A stretch of DNA of 63,987 bases, counting the filler, from Anaeromyces robustus (Eukaryota), in the NCBI GenBank assembly GCA_002104895.1. It is 3 parts of 3 records of this genome, joined end to end, with 100 filler letters (N's around TTAATTAATTAA, not from the genome) between each part and the next. Parts side by side here need not be neighbours in the genome. Positions count along the whole stretch, not along the records: positions 1 to 24,187 come from MCFG01000608.1; 2 more parts are not named here. One strand, 5' to 3'. Both the position numbers and the translations under genes were made by a program. Below, piece by piece: positions 14,980 through 28,259 of the stretch (position 1 is the stretch's first letter; each line of letters opens with the position of its first letter). The notes below the pieces were generated by a model. It had not been told where the DNA came from, searched no databases, and saw only the letters and a program-made list of their open reading frames with translations.

Positions 14980-16625
14980 ATTTTTTTTTTTTTAGACTAA
15001 AGGAAGAGAATACACTTCCATGTTTTTTATTTATTATAAAATAGTTATTAATACATTTAGATTAAGTACATTAATAAAATAGATAAAAAGAAAAATTTCT
15101 ATCTAAAAAAAATCTACAACATAAATTTAATATAAAGAAAAATATAATAAATTTCTGAAATAATTATAATTTCAGTGTAGGGTACTGTTCGGATTTCACT
15201 CCTCTCTAAATGGTAAAATAATATAAAGCAAAGAAGTAACATCTGAATTAAAGATAGTGTGGTGTCCACTAAACTCTCCCTTGGGCAATCTTCATCATTT
15301 CTAGTAAAAGAAGATGACTCCGAAGGCCCTGTGGTAGAAATAACATCGCGATTCGAGATATTATTATTATGTCTTATCGATTCGACGTCGACGCTCTTGG
15401 TAATAATGGGTGTTGATTTATACCGATCAAATAACAACTCCAAAAAGCTGCATATGACTGGTACTGTTTTTGTTAGATATTCAGCCAACCCCACAAAGTA
15501 TGGAACAGGAAACTCTTTTGAACTTTTATAAAGATGTTCAATTAAATGCTTCCGTTCCCCTTTATCGAAATGCAGCTCTTCTAGAGCTGAAGTTCCACCA
15601 AGAAGGAATAGATATATTTTATGGTTGATATATTTTTTTCATACTCTAAGATTGAGGTGTAATTGTTATATAAAGAGTGTCTCTTTATTTTGTCTGCAAA
15701 TGTGATGAAGAGGTCATTGATGAAATCTAGTGAATTCCATCTAATAAGAGAAAAGAAAGGGCAGTCAAAGATCCAATGTTCAAAGGATTGCTCTCCTTGT
15801 TGACAGCAGGGGCAATAAGAAGGGCATTCTTTTGAAACCTTTCCACTCTTATAGGCTATTTTCGAGTTATATACATATCCACAGCGTAAACGTATTATCC
15901 ATTTGATACCTAGATTAATATGAGGGTATTCATAACCCAACATAATAATATGTTTAGAATCACAAAATTTATATTTATCATAGTTTTTACCTTTAATTCC
16001 TTGTTTTTTAGCAAGATCATTCCAGTACCAATTTTTAATTTCTCTGTATTCACTAATTGACACATTTAGGAGTCTTTCCACTAATGAACTAGATTTAACC
16101 GCTCAAGAAGAGAATCTATTAATTCTTTCATAATGTAAAACAAGATCTTTAATAATACAATGTGAAATTTTCCATTTTTTGAAGCACTTAACTTGTCTAG
16201 CAGCGTAAACTCCTGCGATATGAGGTATCTGAAGGTTTCGAGAGAGAGCATAAGTACTCATATAGCTATACCTTTTATCCAAGGAGACTTTAGGAATTAC
16301 ATACATATTAAGATAGAAGGTAGGTTTTAAATAATCAGGAGGTTCTGTAAAAGACATAGGTTTGATTACCATAGTAACACATTTTTGAATACCAAAAGAC
16401 ATTTCATTTAGATCAGCCCATTTTAAAACTCTTTTTAAAATTTTTTGTAATCTTTTTTCAGAAGGTGCTTAAAGGACGATGTCATCAGCAAAAAATCCAC
16501 CACAGCAGTGTTTATCACCAATTTTAACACCGAGATTTTCACAATTATTTAAAATATCATTAATAAAAAGATTAAAAAGAATGGGTGAAAGAGGACAGCC
16601 TTGTCGAACACCTCTATTTATATTA
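14980..16625 (-). mobile_element. 5'-truncated decayed LINE: RT core, C-terminal zinc knuckle, 3' UTR and poly(A)
   Basis: Minus strand reads RGVRQGCPLSPILFNLFIND...CCGGFFADDIVL*APS...MSFGIQKC, then IRLRCG...CPCCQQGEQSFEHWIFDC and VPYFVGLAEYLTKTVPV. The T-tract at ~14981 is the poly(A) tail. Stops, frameshifts and an internal deletion are present. Confidence 0.92.
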
Positions 16626-16629
16626 TTAA

Positions 16630-17080
16630 TCTTTATTTATATTATTAATTTAAAAGAACATATATGTGACATATATATTACATTAAAGAAAGAAATATAT
16701 AATACATAAAATGTAAATTAAATACAAGTAATAAAAGATACAAAAAATAAATAAAATTTATTACAGATATTAATCAAATTAAAATATTAAATAAAAAAAA
16801 AGGAAAGAAGTTAAACTTCTAACTTCTCCCATTCAACGAATGAGATGTCATTCGAATCCGTATCGGAATAAATTCCATGCCTTATCTTTTCGACGTCGAC
16901 GCCCTTGAAGCCGCCCGGAGTGTTCTTATTGTTATTATACCAATTGAGAAGAATCAGAAAGGATATACTCACAATTGGCATAACAACAGTAAGAAAGTAC
17001 GACAGACCCACAATATACGGAACAGGAGACTCAGATGAACCTTTGAAAAGTTGTCCATGCCATTGTCTCCAGAGGACTAA
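16630..17080 (-). mobile_element. 3'-end fragment of a related LINE family
   Basis: ESPVPYIVGLSYFLTVVMPIV...GVDVEKIRH resembles VPYFVGLAEYLTKTVPV...SVDVESIRH of the adjacent LINE; followed by an AT-rich 3' UTR. Confidence 0.75.
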
Positions 17081-17089
17081 AAAATGATA

Positions 17090-17220
17090 AAATATTTTTT
17101 AAAAATATTGATCAAATTAAAAAGGTTAAATAAATAAAAAAGAAAGTAGTCAAACTTTTAACCTCCAATTCAACGAATGGAATACCATTTGAACCCATGT
17201 CAGAATAAATTTATGTCTAT
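17090..17220 (-). mobile_element. Third, very short LINE 3'-end relic
   Basis: 17105-17212 (ATATTGATCAAATTAAAA...GTCAAACTTTTAACCTCCAATTCAACGAATGG...GAATAAATT) is a diverged copy of ~16767-16875. Confidence 0.65.
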
Positions 17221-17727: not shown

Positions 17728-17901
17728 TTATAAATTTTCATAATAACCTGTAAGAATTTCTATACCACTATTTTCAAATTTTGAAGGAATTGATTTAATA
17801 TCTTCATTATTTCTTAAATCTCTATAGAACAAATTAATTATAATATGAAAATTAATTAAAATATAATTATTATTATTATTTATTATTATTATTATTTATT
17901 A

Positions 17902-17937
<36 letters not shown>

Positions 17938-20475
17938 AGTTATTATATTATAAAATAATATTATAAATTAGTTATTATAAGTAATATATATTTATTTAAA
18001 TATTTACATTAAGTTTTTTAAGTTTCATAATTCCAGATGGAATATCTGTAATTTTGTTGTTATATAATATTCTATATATTAATTTGATTATTTAATTTTT
18101 TAAAACAAAATACAAGAATATTATTTAAGGAAATATTAAATTATTATAAAATGTAAATGACGAAAATATTTTAATTAATTTATTAGTTTATCAATATTAT
18201 TAACTAATTATTATTATTCGTTTTTATAAATATATAAATATTTACAATTCTTGAAGATTATAAAATTTCAAAAATCCTGTAATTTTAGATAAGTTATTAT
18301 TACTTAAATCACTGTATATTGTAATGTGTTGAGTTGATTTTTTCATTTTTTATTATAAAAATTAGAATAAATATAATAAAATAAATATAAAAATTAGAAT
18401 AAATATAAAAAATAAATATAAAAATATTTTAAATGGAAAAATAAATTTAAAAAATAAATATAAAAATATTTTAAATGGAAAAATAAATTTAAAAAATTAA
18501 TTATTATAATTATCAATATTTACAGTGATTTAAGATTTTTAAGTATATTTAATGGATATGGCATAGTAGAAAATGAATTTTTACCTAATAATCTATATAT
18601 TAATTTAATTAATTTTTTAAAAGAAAATACAAAAAAAAATATATTTAAGACAATATTAAAATATTAGAAAATTGTAAATGATAATAATATTTTTAAGTGT
18701 ATTTTCTCTTTTTTTAATTTATTAATATTACTAACTAATTATTAGAATTCGTTATATAAATATTTACAATACTTCAAGATTACTTAAATCGTCAAGTCCT
18801 TTAAAATTTTCTAAACCATTATCACTTAAATCTCTGTATATTGCAATGAGTTGAGTTGATTTTTTCATTTTTTATTATAAAAATTAGAATAAATATAATA
18901 ACATGAAAATAAAAATATTTTAAAAGGAAAAATAATTTCTATTAAAAAATTAATTATAACTATAAATATTTACAATGATTTAAGTTGTGTAAGTTTCAAA
19001 AGTTCAGATGGTACTGTAGATAATTTATTTCCACTCAGTATTCTATATATTAATTTAATTAATTTTTTAAAATAATATACATACAAAAACATATTTAAGA
19101 TAATATTAAAATATTAAAAAATTATAAATGAAAATAATATTTTAATTTTATTTTATTCTTTTTTTTAATTTATCAATATTATTAACTAATTATTAATATT
19201 CTATTTATTATAAATATTTACAATACTTCAAGACTTCTAAGTTTCCAAATATCTTCAAGGTTAATTGAAATATTATTACTTAAATTTCTGTAAAATGATG
19301 TTTATTGATTTAATTAGTTCATTTTTATAATAAAATTTAGAATAAATAATAAAATAAAAATAAAAATTATTTTTATTTGAAAAAAATTTTTTATTAAAAA
19401 ATTAATTATTATAATTTATCAATATTTACAATGATCTAAGTTTATTAAGTTGCTCAAGTCCAGAAGGTATTTCAGATAATTTATTTCCACTCAATGATCT
19501 ATATATTAATTTGATTAAACAATTTTTTAAAAGAATATACAATAATATATTTAAAATATTTGAAAATTGTAAATTAAATAATATTTTGAACTTTATTTTT
19601 TTTTGTTAAAATTTATCAATATTAATTAATTATTAATAGTCATATTTATAAGTAATTTACAGTTCTTGAAGTTTACTAAGTTTATTAATTTCAGAAAATT
19701 TAACTAACATATTATTATTTAAATCTCTGTATAATGAAGCATATTGATTTTATTATTTTATTTTTTATAATAAAAATAAGAATAAATAATAAAATAAAAA
19801 TAAAAATATTTTAAATTTAAAAGTAATTTTTATTAAAAAATTAATTATTATAATTATCAATATTTACAATGATTTAAGTTTATTAAGTTGTACAAGTCCT
19901 GACGGTATATCAAATAATCCATTTCCACTCAATGATCTATATATTAATTTGATTAAATAATTTTTTAAAAGAATATACAATAATATATTTAAGACAATAT
20001 TAAAATATTAGAAAATTGTAAATTAAATAATATTTTGAACTTTTTTTTTGTTAAAATTTATCAATATTAATTAATTATTAATAGTAATGTTTATTAATAA
20101 TTTACAATTCTTGAAGATTACTAAGTTTCTCAATATTTGGAAAGTCATCTAATCTATTATTACTTATATCTCTGCATAATGAAGTATATTTATTTGATTA
20201 TTTTATTTTATAAAATAAAATTTAGAATAAATTTAGTAGATTAAAAATAAAAATATTTTAATTTGAAAAAAATAAATTGGTTTAAAAATAATTAATTATT
20301 TTATTTATAAATATTTAATCGTTAATATTCATATCTATATGTACTTACAATTTCAAAAGGTTTGTCAAATTAGTAATCCCGGTTACATCTTTAACATAAC
20401 AATCTTTTATTGTTCTTCATAATGTAATGCATTAAATTTATTTATTTGTATTTCAAATAAAAAATAAATATATTA

Positions 20476-20555
<80 letters not shown>

Positions 20556-21262
20556 ACAATTATTATTTTTTTTTTTGTGATTTTTAAATGTAATGAATAT
20601 ATATTTAAAAATATAAAAATCAAATAAAAATATAACAATATATATCTATACAAAACTAATTAAAAATGACTATTATATTATGATTAACAAAAATTTTCTT
20701 TATTTTTCTTTTATTTACAATTCTTCTAAAGTAATTATTTTACTAATAATAGATGGAATTCCACTAGTATAATCTTGATCATGAATTTCTCTGTAATAAA
20801 TAAAAATTAGTTATATATTAATATATATAATATTCTTTATTTCAATTAATATAAATTCTTTATATATATTTACTTACAAACTATATATATTATTTTCACT
20901 ATTCATTTTACATATAAAATTATTTGATTCACAATTTTTACAAACTTCCTCTTTTAATTTATCACATGTCAAGCATTTATTAATATTATTTTGTTCATAT
21001 GAACTTTTATGATAATTAAATAATATATTATATTATATTATATATTATATATTTGAATATATCAATTATTAAATTATTTATTATATTCTATTTTTAATTT
21101 ATAATTATAAATTTATAATAATAATTTAATTATATAATTACACTGAAACATTTTCATTATCAATTGTATTCGGAATAGACTCCAGACAATTATAAAAAAT
21201 AAAAAAAGTTTTTTTATAATTAGTAATAACAAAAATTATTAATATTAATATTATTATTATTA

Positions 21263-21303
<41 letters not shown>

Positions 21304-21320
21304 TATTATTATTATTATTA

Positions 21321-21358
<38 letters not shown>

Positions 21359-23600
21359 TATTATTTATTTTATTTTCATTTATCTTTATTAATAATTAAT
21401 TATTGATTATTGATTTTGAATAATATATTATTCTTTTATATACTAACAATCTTTTAAGATTAATAAGATTTCCAATTGTTTCAGGAATTGAAGAGATTTT
21501 ATCATTTAGTAAATATCTTTATAATATTATCAGTTAATTGACAAAATATTAAAATATAATAATAATATAAAAAAAATGTAATATATTTATTTTATTTAAG
21601 TATATAAGTATATATAATAAAATTAATAGTATAAACATAAAGAAATATGATATTTTTATTATTTATTATAATTTACAATTCTTTTATGGATGTTAACTCA
21701 AAAATAACATCTGGAATACCCGAACTAAAATCTTGATTATTAATTTTTCTATAATATACAATTATAATGAATCATTTTTAATATAAATATTATATTTTTT
21801 TTTTGTCTTTCAAGTATAATAATTTATATAAATATATATAATCTTTAATATTTATCAATTAAACATAATAATAAAACAAATTTACAAGTGATATATTTTG
21901 TCACTACTATTAACTACACATTCAAAGTCATCGCCATTACATGAAGGACATATTTGATTTTTTAATTCATCACACGAATAACAATAACTTTTATTATTGT
22001 TTTCGAAGGATCTATTAAAATAATTCATTTATAGGTATAATTGATATAATTGATATAATTGACATATATATATATAGGAATATATTTTTTAATTAAATTA
22101 ATTATAATTAAATGATGTATTTGATTTAATAAAAATTTTAGTAGTTTTCTTAAAAAATATCTTACACATATGTTTTCCCAACAAGTTTTGATGGTAATTC
22201 ATTTATACAATTATTATCTAAAACTCTTTAATAAAGATTTTTTAAAATAGTTTTTTTACAAAATTTAATTTAATGAATAAATAATGTATCATTAATACAA
22301 TATTTTATGTATTAAAAATAAAAATATATTATATTCAAAAAAATTATATAATAAAACTTTTTACTTACAATTCTTTTAATTTTTTTAAATTTCCAATTTC
22401 ATTAGGAACTATATAATAAAACTTTTTACTTACAATTCTTTTAATTTTTTTAAATTTCCAATTTCATTAGGAACTGACTTTAAATTATTTTTTTTTAATA
22501 ATCTGTAAATTAACACAATAAAAAAATATAAAAAATTTAATGCATAAATAAAAAAATAACAAAGTATTCATATTAATAATTTTAATTAATAATATGAAGT
22601 ATTTCAACTATATATTTATGATTCTATTATCATTTTTAATGTTTTTTTATTAAATATACTAACAAATTTTCAAGATTAGAAAGATTTCCAATTGATGTAG
22701 GAATTGATGTTAATTTACAATTAGTTAAATATCTATTATATATAATATAATATATGTTCGATTTGACGATAACATAATAAATATATATTATATTATTAAT
22801 TAATAAATTTATTAATATTAAATTTATTATAATATTAAATATATTAAATAATAAATTTAAAAATTTAAATAAATATTCATATATGAAAATTATTAAATCT
22901 ATTCTTTTTATTTAATAATTATTTTGTATTATATATATATTTTCTTACAAACTAATAAGTGCTTTAAGATTTCCAATGGATGAAGGAAGAGAACTTATAT
23001 CATTATTACTTAATTTTCTAAATATAAAGTGTATTACATAAAAAAAAATAGTAATAAGTTTAATTACATTTAAATTAAAAAAAAAATTAAAATAATAGAA
23101 AAATAAAATATTAACGAATTATATTATTATTTTTAAAAATTTTAAATTTTATTTCATCAATAACTTACAAATATTTGAGATTATTGAGTTTTCCAATATC
23201 CTTAGGAATAGTTGTTAATTTATTTGTTCTTAGATCTCTATTTATAAATATAAATATATTATTTTTATGGATTATTCAGTAATTTGTTTTTATTTTTATC
23301 ATTATTCAATTTAAAATAATATACTCTAATATATTTTTCTAATGATGAATTATTAATATTAATTATAAATGTTATATTTTATTTTTTAATAAACTTACAA
23401 TCTTTTAAGTTTCTTAAGATTTACGATTTTTTGAGGAATTGATGAAATTTTATCATTAATTAAATATCTTTTTGTATTATTAATTAGAAAATTTAAAAAT
23501 ACAAAAAAAATAATAATAAATTTAATTATATATTATTTAAATAAAATAATTTAAATATATGTATAATTTAAATTATAAACACTTATTTATTTATCATAAC

Positions 23601-23652
<52 letters not shown>

Positions 23653-24033
23653 TTATTATTATTATTATCGATTTATTATATATAAACATACAAATCCTTT
23701 AAAGAAGTTATACTGAAAATATTATCTGGAATACCACTACTAAAATCTTGATTATTAATTAATCTATATATAAAAATAATTTATAAAAAAATTAATGATC
23801 CATTTTAATTATAGATATAAATTAAATAATTGAAATATATTTAATAATTATTAAGAAATATTTATATTATTGATTACTAACAAAGAATATATATTTCCAT
23901 TTTCATCAGTTTTACATTGAAAATTATCATTACCACATGAACTGCAAATTTGTTTTTCACTTTGTTACATGTAAGAGTTGCTGCAAGAGCAACTGAAATA
24001 TATGATAAAATAAATAATAGAATTTTTATTCAT
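17728..24033 (-). CDS. Multi-exon (~26 exons) leucine-rich-repeat protein, probably secreted, one LRR per exon; possibly partly disrupted
   Basis: GT-AG bounded 66/69/72-nt exons each encode one LRR, e.g. 23763-23692 LINNQDFSSGIPDNIFSITSLKDL, ~23237-23169 DLRTNKLTTIPKDIGKLNNLKYL, ~22732-22664 YLTNCKLTSIPTSIGNLSNLENL, 20171-20106 DISNNRLDDFPNIEKLSNLQEL, 19936-19868 SLSGNGLFDIPSGLVQLNKLKSL. Signal-like IKILLFILSYISVALAA in exon 1; last exon DLRNNEDIKSIPSKFENSGIEILTGYYENL*. Defects: two frameshifts in exon 1, no clear acceptor at ~21200, and a 64-nt exon at 18071-18008. Confidence 0.88.
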
Positions 24034-24187
24034 TCTTTTTACTTTTTAAATAATTTATTATAAATTATATATATATAAAATACAAATAAACGAAAAAGAA
24101 AAAATATAATAAAAAAAAATGAAAAAAGAAAAAAAAAAAGAAAGAAAGAAAAATAAAATTATTGAGCTAAATAATAAAGATTTATAT

Positions 24188-24287
24188 NNNNNNNNNNNNN
24201 NNNNNNNNNNNNNNNNNNNNNNNNNNNNNNNTTAATTAATTAANNNNNNNNNNNNNNNNNNNNNNNNNNNNNNNNNNNNNNNNNNNN
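24188..24287. other. Artificial contig linker N44-TTAATTAATTAA-N44
   Basis: Exactly 100 bp with stops in all six frames at its centre; identical to the linker at 48162. Confidence 0.97.
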
Positions 24288-25401
24288 ATATAATTAAATA
24301 TAATTAAATATATATATAGTTTTAATTAAAATATATATAATAAAAATATTATTATATATATATGGTTTTAATTAAACAATTAAACAATTAATATAATTTT
24401 GTTATTATCATTGGTCAAAAATAATTAAAATTTTAATTAAAAGGTTTTGTCATTCTAATTTAAATTCAAAAATAAGTAAGCCACATATTAATAGAAATAC
24501 GCCATACATTTATAATTCAACTTTATGTAAAGATGGAGGTGCATTTCGAAAACTTGAATTTCGTAAAAGTGCTATCGTGCTGGACATAATTTACTTATTA
24601 TAGAATAAAATTTTGAAATTGAGATCTTGAAATTGCAATTTCATAATTTTGAAAATTATTTAAGCTATAACGAAAATTGAAAATTTAAAACAAAAGGCTG
24701 AAATAATATTTACTATATTTGGAATGAAAGTTATAACTAAATAAATTAAATCCAAAATGAAAATTTGAAATTTAAAATTTGAAATTTAAAATTTGAAATT
24801 CAGAAAATAAGCAAACAATTTAAAATTTAAATAAAATAATTATCTTAAATTTAATGAAGTTATAAATAAATAATTAAATATATATTAGCGATATAATTTA
24901 TGACCCAAGATTTATTGCAGGACTTTTAGGAAACTTACACTATGAAATATTAATGGCAGGGACCAGGAGAATTTGCATATTTTCTTTTATAAGAAATGAA
25001 TAAAAAAAAAATGACACAACTTATAATATTTATCATTTAATGGTCAATTTCATTTTTATTTTTTATTTTTTTATTTTTATTTTTATTCTTTATTTTTATT
25101 TTTATTTTTATTTTTTATTTTTATTTTTATTTTTATTTTTATTATTTATTTTAGAATATAAAACAATTTATATTCTTTAAAAAAATTTTTTTTTGCTTAA
25201 TATATAAAATATTTATATATTATTGAATTAAAAAGAAAATAAATTAATAAAATAAAAATTAAATAAAGAATTATATAAAGAAATAGAAAGGAAAGGAAGT
25301 AAAAAAAAATTTTTTAAGAGGAAAAAAAAAAGATAGTTTTTTTTGTTATTTTTTTTTTTTTTTTTTTGATTACTGATTAATAATATAAATATTATAAAAT
25401 A

Positions 25402-26010: not shown

Positions 26011-28212
26011 CTATAAATAATCAACTAAACCTAAAATGGCATCTTCTGGGAAATGAGTTTTAGCATAAAATAATACAGTTCTTTTACGATTATCTTTTAT
26101 ACTTAAATCAGCTCCTCTTTTATATAATTTTAAATAATATTTACCAAAATCATTCCATTTTAAATTAATATCCATAGCTATATACATTAATAAGGTACGT
26201 CCATTTTCATCTACTAAATTAACATCTACATCTTCTACATTTAATAATAAATCTAATGTATCATAATATCCTTCTTGTACTGCTATCATTAATGCTGTTT
26301 TACCATTATCATTTTGTTTATTAATATTTACTGCATTAACATATAATTTTTCTTGTATATATTCATCACTTAATCCTTGTTGATGTTTACAACATAATAA
26401 AGTTTGTATAATAGATCTATAATCTATATATTTATATTTTAATAATATTTGTATAGTTTTATTACGTCCATGTTTGGCTGCAAACATGATTGCTGTATTA
26501 CCCTTATTATCTTTTATATTTAAATTGGCATGATATTGTAATAATACTTGAATAGTATTATAAAATCCTCGATCACTAGCTAACATTAATGCTGTTTGAC
26601 CTTTGAAATTTTGTAAATCTACTAATTTTGGATGATGTTTTAATAATATACTAATAATTTCTGTATTTTGATTAATTTCTCTAAAAGTTGGCATACGTAC
26701 GGCATAATTTTGACAAGCACTTGTTAATACTGTGTCTTGACTTTTACTACGTAAATAAACATTGGCTCCATAATCTAATAATAATTTTACTATATTAAAA
26801 TGCATTAATCTTGCCGCTACCATAATAGGCGTTTCTCCTTTAAAATTATGAATATTTGGATTAGCCCCTCGACTTAATAAAAGTTTTGCTAAATCAGCTT
26901 GTTCATTTTTTATTAAACAAACATACATTAATGGTCCTGGACATCTTACTGTTTTACAATTTACATCTCCTCCATATTCTATTAATAATTTAAAAGCAGA
27001 TTTATAATAATTTATTTTTTCACCATTTAAATCTAATGTAACATCACCACCATCAACAAGAAATTCTAATTCTCTAATCGTTAATAATAATTCATTTTCT
27101 TTTTCTTTATTTTGTATATTGACATCAGCACCATGTTGTAAAACTAATTTAAATACTTCTATATTACGACTTTTATTAGCATACATTAATGCAGTATCAC
27201 CACAATCATTTTGTAAGTTAACATCTGCTCCGTATTGAAGTAAAAGTTTTACAATTTCTAAATTACCTGTCCAACATGCATGCATTAATGCTGTACGTCC
27301 ATATTTTTTTTGTATATTTGGATTAGCATGATGTTCTAATAAAATTCTTACTAATTCTACATTATCTTTACTTGTAGTAATCATTAATACTGTTTTACCT
27401 CCTTCAAATTGATCATTAATATTAACTTTACATTCTAAAAGAAGATTAACAATATTTATATAAGAAAATCGACAGGCATATAAAAATCCATTATTACCTT
27501 TTTTATTTTTTGCAAAAATATTACAACTATTTTCAATTAATAATTTAACAATATCAAGTGATCCAACTCTACATGCTATAATAAAAGCGGTTTCTCCCTT
27601 TTTATCTTTCATATCAATATAATTAATTTTACAATTAAAACTATCTGATAAAAATGGTAATAATAATTTATTATATTTTCTACTACAATCTTTTGTTGAT
27701 TGTAAACAATTTAAACTCTTTTTTTTAACAATTTTATTAATATTATCATTACCATTATCATTATTATTACCATTATTATTACTATTATCATTATTATTAC
27801 CATTATTATTATTAATATTATTATTATGATTTTGATTATTTATTGCAGTAATATCACTTGTAAGTTGTGATGTTATATTGATCGAATTTAGGGTTGTGTT
27901 ACCAAGATTATTATTAATAATATTAGGATTTAAAATATTAAATGAATTATTATATGTTGTTGTTGTAGTTGTTGTTGTTGTATTTATAGCAGTTGTAGTA
28001 ATATTTGTAGTAGTAGTATTTGCAATATTATTACTACTAAAAGAATTAATTGTATTGACATTAGAATTAATTGTACCAATTGTAGTATTACCAATACCAA
28101 TATCTACATTATTAGTTAATATACTGTTTATAGTACCTATTGTTGTATTACCAATACCATTATAATTATGATTACTACTAATATTATTAATATCATTATC
28201 ATCATCATTATC

Positions 28213-28259
<47 letters not shown>

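What the first reader, a model, noticed from the sequence alone, without database searches (positions are those of the whole stretch)
17985..20290. Five tandem intron-exon cassettes giving strictly alternating 22-aa and 23-aa LRRs
Seen: 66-nt exons (20171-20106, ~19726-19661, ~19287-19222, ~18833-18768, ~18311-18246) alternate with 69-nt-type exons (19936-19868, ~19498-19430, ~19042-18974, ~18591-18524, and 18071-18008, which is shortened to 64 nt). The introns are duplicated too: TATAAAATTAGAATAAAT...AAAAAATTAATTATTATAATTATCAATATTTAC and CTATATATTAATTT(G/A)ATTA...AAATTGTAAAT recur every ~440-520 bp. By eye, the introns look as similar between cassettes as the exons, or more so (DISNNRLDDFPNIEK, DLNNNMLVKFSEINK, NLSNNISINLEDIWK, DLSDNGLENFKGLDD, DLSNNNLSKITGFLK). 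Inference: recent unequal crossing-over followed by diversifying selection on the exons.
Basis: partly seen in the sequence, partly recalled or inferred. Interest (0 to 1): 0.8.

Follow-up and report, generated by a model that had tools for sequence, protein, structure and literature searches.

The report
Tandem LRR exon cassettes, conserved introns
A secreted leucine-rich-repeat gene of an extremely AT-rich anaerobic gut fungus carries five tandem two-exon cassettes whose introns are far more alike than their exons, a pattern known from other duplicated genes but seen here in a family found only in Anaeromyces.

Summary
On the minus strand, ten one-LRR exons (66 nt and 69 nt in strict alternation, all flanked by phase-2 GT..AG introns) form five ~445-bp cassettes. 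Between cassettes the introns are 74-96% identical and the exons only 61-87%. Unrelated introns here score 57-68%. By maximum likelihood the exons evolved 2.25 times faster than the introns (p about 4e-9).

AT-biased mutation explains only part of this: the corrected excess is 1.67-fold. Neutral decay is rejected, with 0 stop codons against 8.8 expected and 84 of 85 scaffold residues kept.

dN exceeds intron divergence, but dN/dS is never significantly above 1. Synonymous change may also exceed intron change. The fastest codons lie outside the concave beta-strand. The two intron families give conflicting, well-supported trees.

The best reading is a cassette array reshuffled by unequal crossing-over and/or gene conversion. 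That keeps the introns alike, while selection keeps the LRR scaffold and lets or drives the surface residues apart.

The gene belongs to a cysteine-capped LRR family with hits only in Anaeromyces robustus. RNA evidence could not be obtained.

The parts
17728..24033 (-). Whole putative gene, about 26 phase-2 exons. It encodes a signal peptide and three modules, each made of a cysteine-rich cap followed by LRRs; the third module holds the five cassettes.
   Evidence: An exon scan found AG..GT-bounded open exons whose lengths are multiples of 3. tblastn of five Anaeromyces robustus proteins matched these exons in the same order. Spliced paralogue models have the same three-module order.
23882..24033 (-). 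Exon 1: start codon, signal-peptide-like stretch and the first cysteine cap. It is read in two frames, so two one-base frame shifts in A runs separate the ATG, the signal peptide and the cap.
   Evidence: Reading. tblastn of P0005 and P0004 matched 24029-23949 and 24021-23866 in different frames.
22166..23763 (-). Module A LRR exons: 23763-23692, 23467-23399, 23237-23169, 23017-22949, 22732-22664, 22502-22434 and 22225-22166.
   Evidence: with 74-91% amino-acid identity to P0002 and P0005.
21142..22011 (-). Module B: cysteine-cap exon 22011-21886, LRR exons 21748-21677 and 21516-21448, then an (ATT)59 microsatellite, then a remnant of the module's last exon (about 21196-21142) with no AG acceptor.
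   Evidence: Paralogue P0002 has seven LRRs in this module.
20349..21003 (-). Start of module C: cysteine-cap exon 21003-20878, LRR exon 20790-20719, and a 66-nt A-like exon 20414-20349 just upstream of the array.
19868..20348 (-). Cassette 1: intron I1_1 20348-20172, exon A1 20171-20106 (22 aa), intron I2_1 20105-19937, exon B1 19936-19868 (23 aa).
19430..19867 (-). Cassette 2: I1_2 19867-19727, A2 19726-19661, I2_2 19660-19499, B2 19498-19430.
   Evidence: I2_1 and I2_2 are 96.2% identical (6 mismatches in 158).
18974..19429 (-). Cassette 3: I1_3 19429-19288, A3 19287-19222, I2_3 19221-19043, B3 19042-18974.
18524..18973 (-). Cassette 4: I1_4 18973-18834, A4 18833-18768, I2_4 18767-18593, B4 18592-18524.
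18008..18523 (-). Cassette 5: I1_5 18523-18312 (lengthened by an internal 42-bp tandem repeat), A5 18311-18246, I2_5 18245-18072, B5 18071-18008. B5 is 64 nt because of a 5-nt deletion at its 3' end.
17728..18007 (-). Last intron 18007-17822 (alike to I1 only in about its first 40 nt) and terminal exon 17821-17731 with the stop codon at 17730-17728. The family's conserved C-terminal peptide is out of frame after the 64-nt exon, and the in-frame reading stops after four codons.
   Evidence: tblastn to P0002, P0003 and P0005 gave 58-69% identity.

Best explanation
The region is the 3' part of one multi-exon gene for a secreted LRR protein with cysteine-rich caps, from an anaerobic gut fungus. 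Its closest relatives are all from Anaeromyces robustus.

The repeat unit is a ~445-bp cassette of two introns and two symmetric phase-2 exons. One exon encodes a 22-aa LRR and the other a 23-aa LRR. Any number of units can therefore be gained, lost or exchanged without breaking the reading frame.

The array was built and is still being reshuffled by non-allelic exchange between the near-identical introns, through unequal crossing-over and/or short-tract gene conversion. This keeps the introns alike. The exons escape that homogenisation. Selection holds the LRR scaffold and the open frame, while the loop and convex-side residues have been replaced almost to saturation, either because change there is favoured or because constraint there is weak.

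Shown: the anatomy of the array, the faster evolution of exons than introns, the retention of frame and scaffold, and the mosaic history of the segments. Inferred: the exchange mechanism, selection against exon homogenisation, secretion, and binding as the function.
For: Anatomy.

Exons are faster than introns.
- ML partition rates are 1.77 for exons and 0.78 for introns, and tree lengths are 1.115 against 0.467 and 0.467. The likelihood-ratio statistic is 34.8 with 1 d.f..
- Nine of 10 cassette pairs are significant by Fisher's test.
- All three codon positions exceed the introns, with first positions fastest: 0.93, 0.61 and 0.73 minimum changes per column against 0.32-0.37.

Base composition is not the whole cause. 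There are 102 observed changes against 61.1 expected from intron per-base rates, and A<>T differences per A/T site are 0.161 against 0.095.

The exons did not decay neutrally. There are 0 stop codons where 8.8 are expected (0 of 4000 simulations were stop-free), and 84 of 85 scaffold residues are kept against 69.4 +/- 3.1 simulated.

Introns of this gene are not conserved in general. In the older modules A, B and C the introns are at background (59-68%) while the exons are 55-84% identical.

The history is mosaic.
- The I1 tree joins copies 4+5 (bootstrap 100) with copy 2 (94), whereas the I2 tree splits 1+2 from 3+4+5 (100).
- A run of 20 concordant polymorphic sites lies inside I2 for pair 1-2 (global p 0.009), and a run of 15 lies inside I1 for pair 4-5 (pairwise p 0.004, global 0.08).

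The exons look old. Each of the five 22-aa units is as close to a unit of paralogues P0001 or P0002 (0.45-0.68) as to its best partner in its own array (0.41-0.59).

The array is dynamic. Paralogues read ABABABAAAB and ABABAABAAAB. A perfect 65-bp tandem duplication covers an exon end plus its donor site, and a 42-bp repeat sits inside I1_5.

The same signature is documented for L/M opsin genes and attributed there to intronic gene conversion plus selection on the exons (abstract of PMC3213168; passages of PMC3924837).
Against: - There are no reads, no second strain and no DNA of the paralogous loci, so exchange events are inferred from one assembly only.
- Synonymous change against the intron expectation is ambiguous. 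The strictest count gives 11 against 9.0 (P 0.29), the middle count 14 against 9.0 (P 0.07), and path-averaging gives 18.7 against 9.0 (P 0.002). A simple recent duplication followed by fast amino-acid change therefore remains possible.
- Only 1 of 10 pairs passes the Sawyer-type test at the global level.
- Conversion tracts confined to 140-210-nt introns would be unusually short unless selection or mismatch barriers trim them.
- The gene has three frame disruptions and one exon remnant, so it may no longer be functional.
- Expression and splicing could not be checked.
Confidence: 0.55

Rival explanations
1. The five cassettes arose recently by unequal crossing-over, so the introns show the true neutral divergence (about 0.19). 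Positive diversifying selection then drove amino-acid change in the exons, with no later homogenisation of the introns.
For: dN of 0.43 exceeds the intron distance of 0.18. Non-scaffold nonsynonymous change is 2.72 times the intron expectation. First codon positions are the fastest class. The strictest synonymous count equals the intron expectation, 11 against 9.0, which gives omega of about 2 at non-scaffold codons. ML omega is 1.99 under F1X4.
Against: - Omega is never significantly above 1, and it falls to 0.77 or 0.50 under F3X4.
- Scaffold codons run at 1.10 times the intron rate despite conserved residues.
- The I1 and I2 trees conflict at bootstrap 94-100.
- Intron I1_4/I1_5, 92% identical, is flanked on both sides by exons only 64-67% identical.
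- The 22-aa units are no closer to each other than to units of other genes.
- The fastest codons are outside the concave beta-strand.
Confidence: 0.25
2. Relaxed constraint or pseudogene decay under strong AT-biased mutation. The exons are farther from compositional equilibrium than the introns, so they change faster without any selection for change.
For: Exon GC is 17-29% against 4-13% for the introns. G/C-involving site pairs differ about as often in exons (266 of 425) as in introns (234 of 387), by arithmetic on the counts. There are three frame disruptions, one acceptor-less exon remnant and a truncated module B. ML omega is near 1.
Against: After correcting for base identity the exons still show 1.67 times the expected changes (P 1e-6), and 2.31 times at loop and convex-side codons (P 4e-8). 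Change from ancestral A is 0.166 in exons against 0.075 in introns (p 9e-5). No stop codon is present where 8.8 are expected, and 84 of 85 scaffold residues are kept (0 of 4000 simulations for either).
Confidence: 0.1
3. The intron sequences themselves are under purifying selection, for example as splicing enhancers for 66-69-nt micro-exons or as pairing elements that loop out exons for regulated skipping.
For: The 3' 35 nt of I2 and the 5' 35 nt of I1 are the best-kept blocks. In the minimum-energy folds the end of I2 pairs with the start of I1 across the B exon. All exons are symmetric, so skipping would keep the frame.
Against: The folds are no more stable than shuffles, with z of +1.0 and +0.4. 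Introns at the same LRR position in the older modules of the same gene are at background similarity. The introns tolerate indels of 11 to 71 nt. Constraint would not produce conflicting I1 and I2 trees.
Confidence: 0.07
4. Assembly artefact: a repeat array wrongly expanded, collapsed or polished in an extremely AT-rich genome.
For: There are N gaps 4 kb upstream. Two of the three frame shifts sit in A homopolymers. A 100% identical 65-bp duplication is present.
Against: The cassettes differ from one another at 11-36% of sites and by many indels, which is not what mis-assembled identical repeats look like. Paralogous proteins from independently annotated scaffolds show the same kind of array.
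Confidence: 0.03

Closest known systems
Primate L/M (red/green) opsin tandem paralogues: intronic gene conversion with exons kept apart by selection (abstract of PMC3213168; passages in section 3.2 of PMC3924837; Shyue 1994 and Zhou & Li 1996 seen only as entries in that reference list)
   Same: Exon divergence is significantly above intron divergence between tandem copies. Conversion-type runs lie in introns. Exon similarity points to an older split than intron similarity does.
   Different: Here the copies are repeat units inside one gene, not whole genes. There are five units. The introns are 140-210 nt, so any tracts must be very short. No orthologues were available for the decisive exon-tree against intron-tree test. 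The diverging residues are spread over loop and convex positions, not a few tuning sites.
Mosaic divergence of tandem paralogues under interlocus gene conversion (HMA4 in Arabidopsis halleri; abstract and outline of bioRxiv 10.1101/2025.10.29.685298)
   Same: Effective conversion rates vary along the unit, which gives segments with different divergence and history.
   Different: That case concerns three whole-gene copies with population data. Here there is a single assembly and no polymorphism.
Accelerated evolution of exons relative to introns in snake-venom phospholipase A2 genes and conotoxins (recalled; no paper read here)
   Same: Introns are more alike than the protein-coding parts between paralogues.
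   Different: In those cases dN/dS well above 1 is reported (recalled). Here omega is 0.5-2.0 and never significant.
Ribonuclease inhibitor, in which 28-aa and 29-aa LRRs alternate and the duplication unit is a pair of repeats (recalled), and genes with one LRR per phase-2 exon such as the glycoprotein-hormone receptors (recalled)
   Same: Two repeat lengths alternate because the duplicated unit holds two LRRs. Symmetric exons make duplication frame-neutral.
   Different: Here each LRR has its own exon, the lengths are 22 and 23 aa, and the introns were duplicated with the exons and remain recognisable.
Anaeromyces robustus 'L domain-like' and 'RNI-like' proteins ORX77341.1, ORX68906.1, ORX68905.1, ORX83851.1 and ORX71036.1
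   Same: Same cysteine cap (C-x2-C-x7-C-x2-C-x6-C), same module order, same A/B LRR array and same C-terminal peptide. Module A exons are 74-91% identical.
   Different: The window's gene is none of these. Its array is strictly ABABABABAB, whereas theirs contain AA and AAA runs. Its units are more diverged: mean within-array identity is 0.43 for A units and 0.49 for B units, against 0.51-0.59 in the paralogues. Its module B is truncated, and it has frame disruptions.
Solved LRR solenoids: Leptospira interrogans LIC11098, LIC12759 and LIC10831; SHOC2; plant receptor-kinase ectodomains (Foldseek on the model of paralogue P0001)
   Same: LRR solenoid fold with 22-24-residue repeats. E-values run from 9e-19 to 1e-12, with 18-31% identity.
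   Different: TM-scores are low (0.25-0.43 on the query) because the fungal protein is broken into three capped modules. None of the listed structures is described as having internal cysteine-rich caps.

Membership tests
Leucine-rich repeat proteins (Pfam LRR_1, LRR_4, LRR_8) | Tandem 20-30-aa units with the motif LxxLxLxxN and hydrophobic positions at fixed spacing | tested here: met
   All ten exons carry the motif. Of the 7 single LRR exons of 22-23 aa scanned, 5 give sub-threshold LRR_4, LRR_8 or LRR_1 hits (E 5e-4 to 0.1) and 2 give none, as expected for single repeats. Spliced paralogues score LRR_14, LRR_4 and LRR_8 at E 1e-12 to 1e-57.
Anaeromyces cysteine-capped LRR family ('L domain-like protein') | 42-aa cap exon with C-x2-C-x7-C-x2-C-x6-C, followed by an INNQDFSxGIP-type first LRR | tested here: met
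   The window holds three caps. A profile of two of them hits 5 proteins among 1.84 billion representatives at E <= 0.001, all from A. robustus.
Anaeromyces cysteine-capped LRR family ('L domain-like protein') | Third module made of alternating 22-aa and 23-aa units, ending in the peptide ...SIPxxFExSxIEIL.GY... | tested here: met
   The terminal exon is 58-69% identical to P0002, P0003 and P0005 but is out of frame in the window.
Intron homogenisation by gene conversion with divergent exons (opsin type) | Divergence between copies significantly higher in exons than in introns | tested here: met
   Exons are 2.25 times faster, with a likelihood-ratio statistic of 34.8. Nine of 10 pairs are significant by Fisher's test.
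Intron homogenisation by gene conversion with divergent exons (opsin type) | Intron divergence lower than synonymous divergence | tested here: inconclusive
   The ratio of observed synonymous change to the intron-based expectation is 1.22 (P 0.29), 1.56 (P 0.07) or 2.08 (P 0.002), depending on the counting rule.
Intron homogenisation by gene conversion with divergent exons (opsin type) | Conversion tracts detected, mostly within introns | tested here: inconclusive
   One of 10 pairs is significant at the global level (I2, pair 1-2, p 0.009). Two more are significant only pairwise, one of them inside an exon. The I1 and I2 trees conflict at bootstrap 94-100.
Intron homogenisation by gene conversion with divergent exons (opsin type) | Exon trees group orthologues while intron trees group paralogues of one genome | not testable with these tools
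   No DNA of paralogous or orthologous loci could be fetched. The only proxy is that the 22-aa units are as close to paralogue units as to each other.
Diversifying selection on LRR ligand-binding faces (as in plant resistance genes; recalled) | dN/dS significantly above 1, concentrated at the x residues of xxLxLxx on the concave beta-sheet | tested here: not met
   Omega is 0.5-2.0 and never significant. Concave x codons show 1.58 times the expectation, against 2.31 times for loop and convex codons. Strand positions were taken from the model of a paralogue.
Introner-like elements (intron families spread to unrelated sites) | Near-identical copies of the intron at many unrelated gene positions | tested here: not met
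   In the other 61 kb of the window, the best matches to the I1 and I2 copies are at AT-rich background (61-97 bits, 67-74% identity), against 95-183 bits inside the array. A genome-wide test was not possible because no genome is held.

The most novel reading that the evidence does not exclude
The near-identical introns are the working part of a cassette-exchange system. They would serve as homology arms that let single LRR exons be copied or swapped within the array, and perhaps between the dispersed members of this Anaeromyces-specific family. An anaerobic fungus could then vary the surface of a secreted binding protein exon by exon. The logic resembles the copy-choice assembly of lamprey variable lymphocyte receptors, but it would act in the germ line of a fungus. 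Two observations are compatible with exon-sized replacement rather than stepwise substitution: exon cores are close to saturation (ML tree length 9.8-10.4 substitutions per codon across the five copies) and contain several codons that differ at all three bases; and the units are as close to units of other genes as to their neighbours.
Probability: 0.06. Interest if true: 0.85.

Novelty: new member of a known kind. Interest (0 to 1): 0.45.

Why it matters
The array is a clean, small and internally controlled example of introns being better conserved than exons. Older duplicates in the same gene show the opposite, ordinary pattern. It lies in an early-diverging fungal lineage whose genome evolution is little studied.

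It shows that the intron yardstick for positive selection can mislead in tandem arrays. Exchange between copies can make introns look young, and extreme AT bias inflates exon change.

It also flags a lineage-restricted family of apparently secreted, cysteine-capped LRR proteins with variable repeat numbers in Anaeromyces. Such proteins are candidates for adhesion to, or recognition of, plant material or microbial partners in the gut. That role is inferred, not shown.

Tried and rejected
- Read evidence. The look-up of sequencing runs listed one DNA run holding 0.84 of the sampled words, and RNA or possibly-RNA runs holding 0.09-0.17. Nothing was laid, so these shares are no evidence of expression, splicing or copy number.
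- Whole genome. None is held.
- The repeat finder on the minus strand returned an input error. TRF and my own alignments were used instead.
- A word-based protein search with the cap alignment found nothing (0 of 67 candidates). The exhaustive HMMER search then found the family.
- Searches with paralogue P0001 among near-length and shorter proteins found three further A. robustus proteins (P0105, P0126 and a Piromyces finnis 'L domain-like' P0173 at 40% identity), generic LRR proteins, and no protein encoded by the window.
- Metagenome scans. An exact 53-nt exon pattern gave 0 matches. A scan with P0001 gave 7 loci with only generic 31-42% LRR similarity, and these were not used.
- RNA structure as the reason for intron conservation: z of +1.0 and +0.4.
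In one search the omega values for the 17-codon and 9-codon subsets were not optimised (printed 1.00/1.00, with free lnL below the fixed lnL), so I discard them.
- A repeat-induced-point-mutation type of explanation was considered. Transitions make up only 40% of exon differences against 29% in introns, and A<>T changes are also elevated. It cannot carry the effect.
- A literature search for Neocallimastigomycota plus 'leucine-rich repeat' gave 4 papers (listing only). None is about this family by its title.
Full report
**What the window is**

The window is extremely AT-rich: 7.6-23% GC in 2-kb bins. It holds long low-complexity ankyrin-repeat genes and reverse-transcriptase fragments. The finding lies on the minus strand. 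No whole genome is held for this window.

Sequencing runs that share words with the region are labelled with one coded organism and 'fungus metagenome'. A profile built from two exons of the gene hits only five proteins among 1.84 billion representatives, all from the anaerobic gut fungus Anaeromyces robustus. I infer that the window comes from that species or a close relative.

**Checking the observation**

All ten exons sit between AG and GT exactly as listed. The one exception is the fourth 69-nt exon, which starts at 18592 rather than 18591. Every exon begins with the third base of a Leu codon and, except the last, ends with two bases of the next Leu codon. The introns are therefore phase 2 and the exons symmetric. 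The exons encode 22-aa and 23-aa LRRs in the order ABABABABAB.

TRF finds a 445-bp period with 4.2 copies and score 1883. The last exon is 64 nt because five bases are missing at its 3' end. This throws the conserved terminal exon (17821-17731) out of frame.

**Are the introns really more alike than the exons?**

Yes. Pairwise identity is as follows.

| Segment | Identity between cassettes |
|---|---|
| Intron I1 (before the 66-nt exon) | 74-92% |
| Intron I2 (between the two exons) | 81-96% |
| 66-nt exons | 65-77% |
| 69-nt exons | 61-87% |

Two things show where saturation lies in this composition. The unrelated last intron aligns at 57-64%. Any AT-rich stretch of the window gives 65-74% local matches. 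A simulation with the introns' own base frequencies and indels showed that MAFFT does not hide substitutions in the relevant range: a true d of 0.2 gives p of 0.173, and the plateau is near 0.43.

Other measures agree.
- Invariant columns: 65% and 74% of intron columns, against 44% and 39% of exon columns.
- ML with a separate HKY+F model per partition and shared branch lengths gives relative rates of 0.78 (introns), 2.17, 1.51 and 1.69 (codon positions 1, 2, 3). Tree lengths are 0.467 and 0.467 for the two introns and 1.115 for the exons.
- Allowing exons their own rate improves lnL from -1583.24 to -1565.84. That is 2dlnL = 34.8, or p about 4e-9.

**An internal control**

The gene has three older duplicated modules, each a cysteine-rich cap exon followed by LRR exons. 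Between these modules the exons are 55-84% identical, but the introns at the same positions are at background, 59-68%. Introns of this gene are thus free to diverge. The likeness of the array's introns reflects recent common ancestry of those segments, not a general constraint. RNA folding gives no support for a structural role, with z of +1.0 and +0.4.

**Could AT-biased mutation explain it?**

Only in part. Exons have 17-29% GC and introns 4-13%, and G/C sites are more mutable: intron per-lineage change is 0.16-0.25 from G or C against 0.07 from A or T. Applying the intron per-base rates to the exons predicts 61.1 changes from the majority consensus, but 102 are seen (1.67-fold, Poisson P 1e-6). 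This is conservative, because seven no-majority exon columns were dropped. A<>T differences per A/T site are 0.161 in exons and 0.095 in introns.

**Could it be a decaying pseudogene?**

Not for the bulk of the divergence. Placing the same number of changes per copy at random, with the intron spectrum, gives 8.8 stop codons on average, and none of 4000 simulations was stop-free. The real exons have none. They also keep 84 of 85 scaffold residues, against 69.4 +/- 3.1 in the simulations.

The gene does carry damage.
- Two one-base frame shifts in A runs in exon 1.
- The 5-nt deletion in the last array exon.
- A module B that has lost four LRR exons, replaced by an (ATT)59 tract, leaving an acceptor-less remnant.

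**Is it positive selection?**

Split by structural role, observed changes against the intron-based expectation are as follows.

| Codon class | Observed | Expected | Ratio | P |
|---|---|---|---|---|
| Scaffold | 27 | 24.5 | 1.10 | 0.33 |
| x positions of LxxLxLxxN | 21 | 13.3 | 1.58 | 0.031 |
| Remaining loop and convex-side | 54 | 23.3 | 2.31 | 4e-8 |

The AlphaFold model of paralogue P0001 (pLDDT above 90 over most of the array) places the beta-strand on the last two residues of a unit plus the first residue of the next. The hypervariable core therefore lies outside the concave sheet.

Three results weaken the simple reading.
- ML codon models give omega of 0.93 or 0.50 for all codons and 1.99 or 0.77 for non-scaffold codons (F1X4 or F3X4). 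None differs from 1, with p from 0.07 to 0.85.
- Synonymous change against the intron-based expectation of 9.0 is 11 by the strictest count (single-base, same amino acid), 14 with Leu codon-family switches, and 18.7 with path averaging. The ratio therefore lies between 1.2 and 2.1.
- Scaffold codons, whose residues are clearly conserved, still run at the intron rate. This suggests that the intron yardstick is too short.

**Mosaic history**

The two intron families disagree. I1 joins copies 4 and 5 (bootstrap 100) and adds copy 2 (94). I2 splits 1+2 from 3+4+5 (100). The exons weakly follow I2 (68).

A Sawyer-type permutation test finds three runs of concordant polymorphic sites.
- 20 sites inside I2 for pair 1-2 (global p 0.009).
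- 15 sites inside I1 for pair 4-5 (pairwise p 0.004, global 0.08).
- 14 sites inside the B exon for pair 2-3 (pairwise p 0.006, global 0.13).

I1_4 and I1_5 are 92% identical, yet the exons on either side are 64% and 67% identical. At the protein level each 22-aa unit is as close to some unit of paralogues P0001 or P0002 (0.45-0.68) as to its best partner in its own array (0.41-0.59).

Together these results fit exchange between cassettes that has kept or made the introns alike, while the exon cores stayed or moved apart. This is the pattern described for L/M opsin genes. There, exon divergence exceeds intron divergence, intron trees look young, exon trees look old, and GENECONV tracts lie in introns (abstract of PMC3213168; passages of PMC3924837). 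Mosaic divergence under interlocus conversion has also been modelled for HMA4 (abstract of bioRxiv 10.1101/2025.10.29.685298).

**The gene and its family**

An exon scan and tblastn with the five A. robustus proteins give one model of about 26 exons from 24033 to 17728. Its parts, in order, are as follows.
- A signal-peptide-like start. This is by eye and by likeness to P0004 and P0005; no predictor was run.
- Cap 1 plus seven LRRs.
- Cap 2 plus a truncated set of LRRs.
- Cap 3 plus two LRRs, then the array, then a conserved C-terminal peptide.

The spliced paralogue models show the same order in one reading frame. Their arrays read ABABABAAAB and ABABAABAAAB, so unit number and order vary within the family and strict alternation is particular to this copy.

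Pfam sees only LRR families in the paralogues. Foldseek places the model with Leptospira LIC LRR proteins, SHOC2 and plant receptor ectodomains. Beyond A. robustus, only generic LRR proteins were found. The metagenome scans gave nothing specific.

**Verdict**

Selection has clearly maintained the frame and the scaffold, and the exon cores changed much faster than the introns. The data cannot, however, separate 'recent duplication plus diversifying selection' from 'older units whose introns are homogenised by exchange'. The classical dN/dS criterion is not met.

The phenomenon is of a known kind, in a new and lineage-restricted gene family. Interest is moderate.

Noticed in passing
window 22345-22475 (minus-strand gene): A perfect 65-bp tandem duplication (2.0 copies, 100% identity) that repeats the last ~40 nt of LRR exon 22502-22434 together with its GTAAGT donor and 25 nt of intron. 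It is either a very recent small duplication or an assembly artefact. It creates a second possible donor site.
   Followed up: partly
window 24033-23882: Exon 1 is read in two frames. The ATG and the cysteine cap share one frame, and the hydrophobic signal-peptide-like stretch lies in another. This implies two compensating one-base length differences in A runs relative to paralogues P0004 and P0005.
   Followed up: partly
window 21142-21447: Where paralogue P0002 has four more LRR exons in its second module, the window has an (ATT)59 microsatellite (21235-21411) and a remnant of the module's last exon with no AG acceptor.
   Followed up: partly
window 15114-17098 (-), and paralogue protein P0002 residues 752-1053: Reverse-transcriptase fragments lie just downstream of the LRR gene (RVT_1, E 2e-9). 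The gene model of paralogue P0002 runs from its LRR array into a related reverse transcriptase (57% identity over 112 aa to the window, E 6e-34). The LRR gene and the retroelement are therefore neighbours at two loci.
   Followed up: partly
window 3274-3714 (+): A second reverse-transcriptase fragment (RVT_1, E 3e-13), 49% identical to the RT part of P0002.
   Followed up: no
window 18398-18501: Intron I1_5 is 71 nt longer than its sister copies because of an internal 42-bp tandem repeat (2.5 copies, 96% matches). This shows ongoing slippage inside the array's introns.
   Followed up: no
window about 24185-24290: Two runs of N (assembly gaps) lie about 150 bp upstream of the gene's start codon, so the promoter region is incomplete.
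   Followed up: no
window 26011-29397 (-) and 12872-14461 (+): Two intron-less ankyrin-repeat ORFs (1128 aa and 529 aa) with long Asn-rich or Glu/Lys/Asn-rich low-complexity inserts flank the LRR locus.
   Followed up: no
protein P0004 (ORX83851.1), residues about 415-582: One family member replaces the A/B array with a ~170-aa C-terminal domain that has no Pfam match at E <= 0.001. Its fold and role are unknown.
   Followed up: no
window 44965-45825 (+): An ORF with a Duc1 domain (PF08588, E 7e-41), unrelated to the finding.
   Followed up: no
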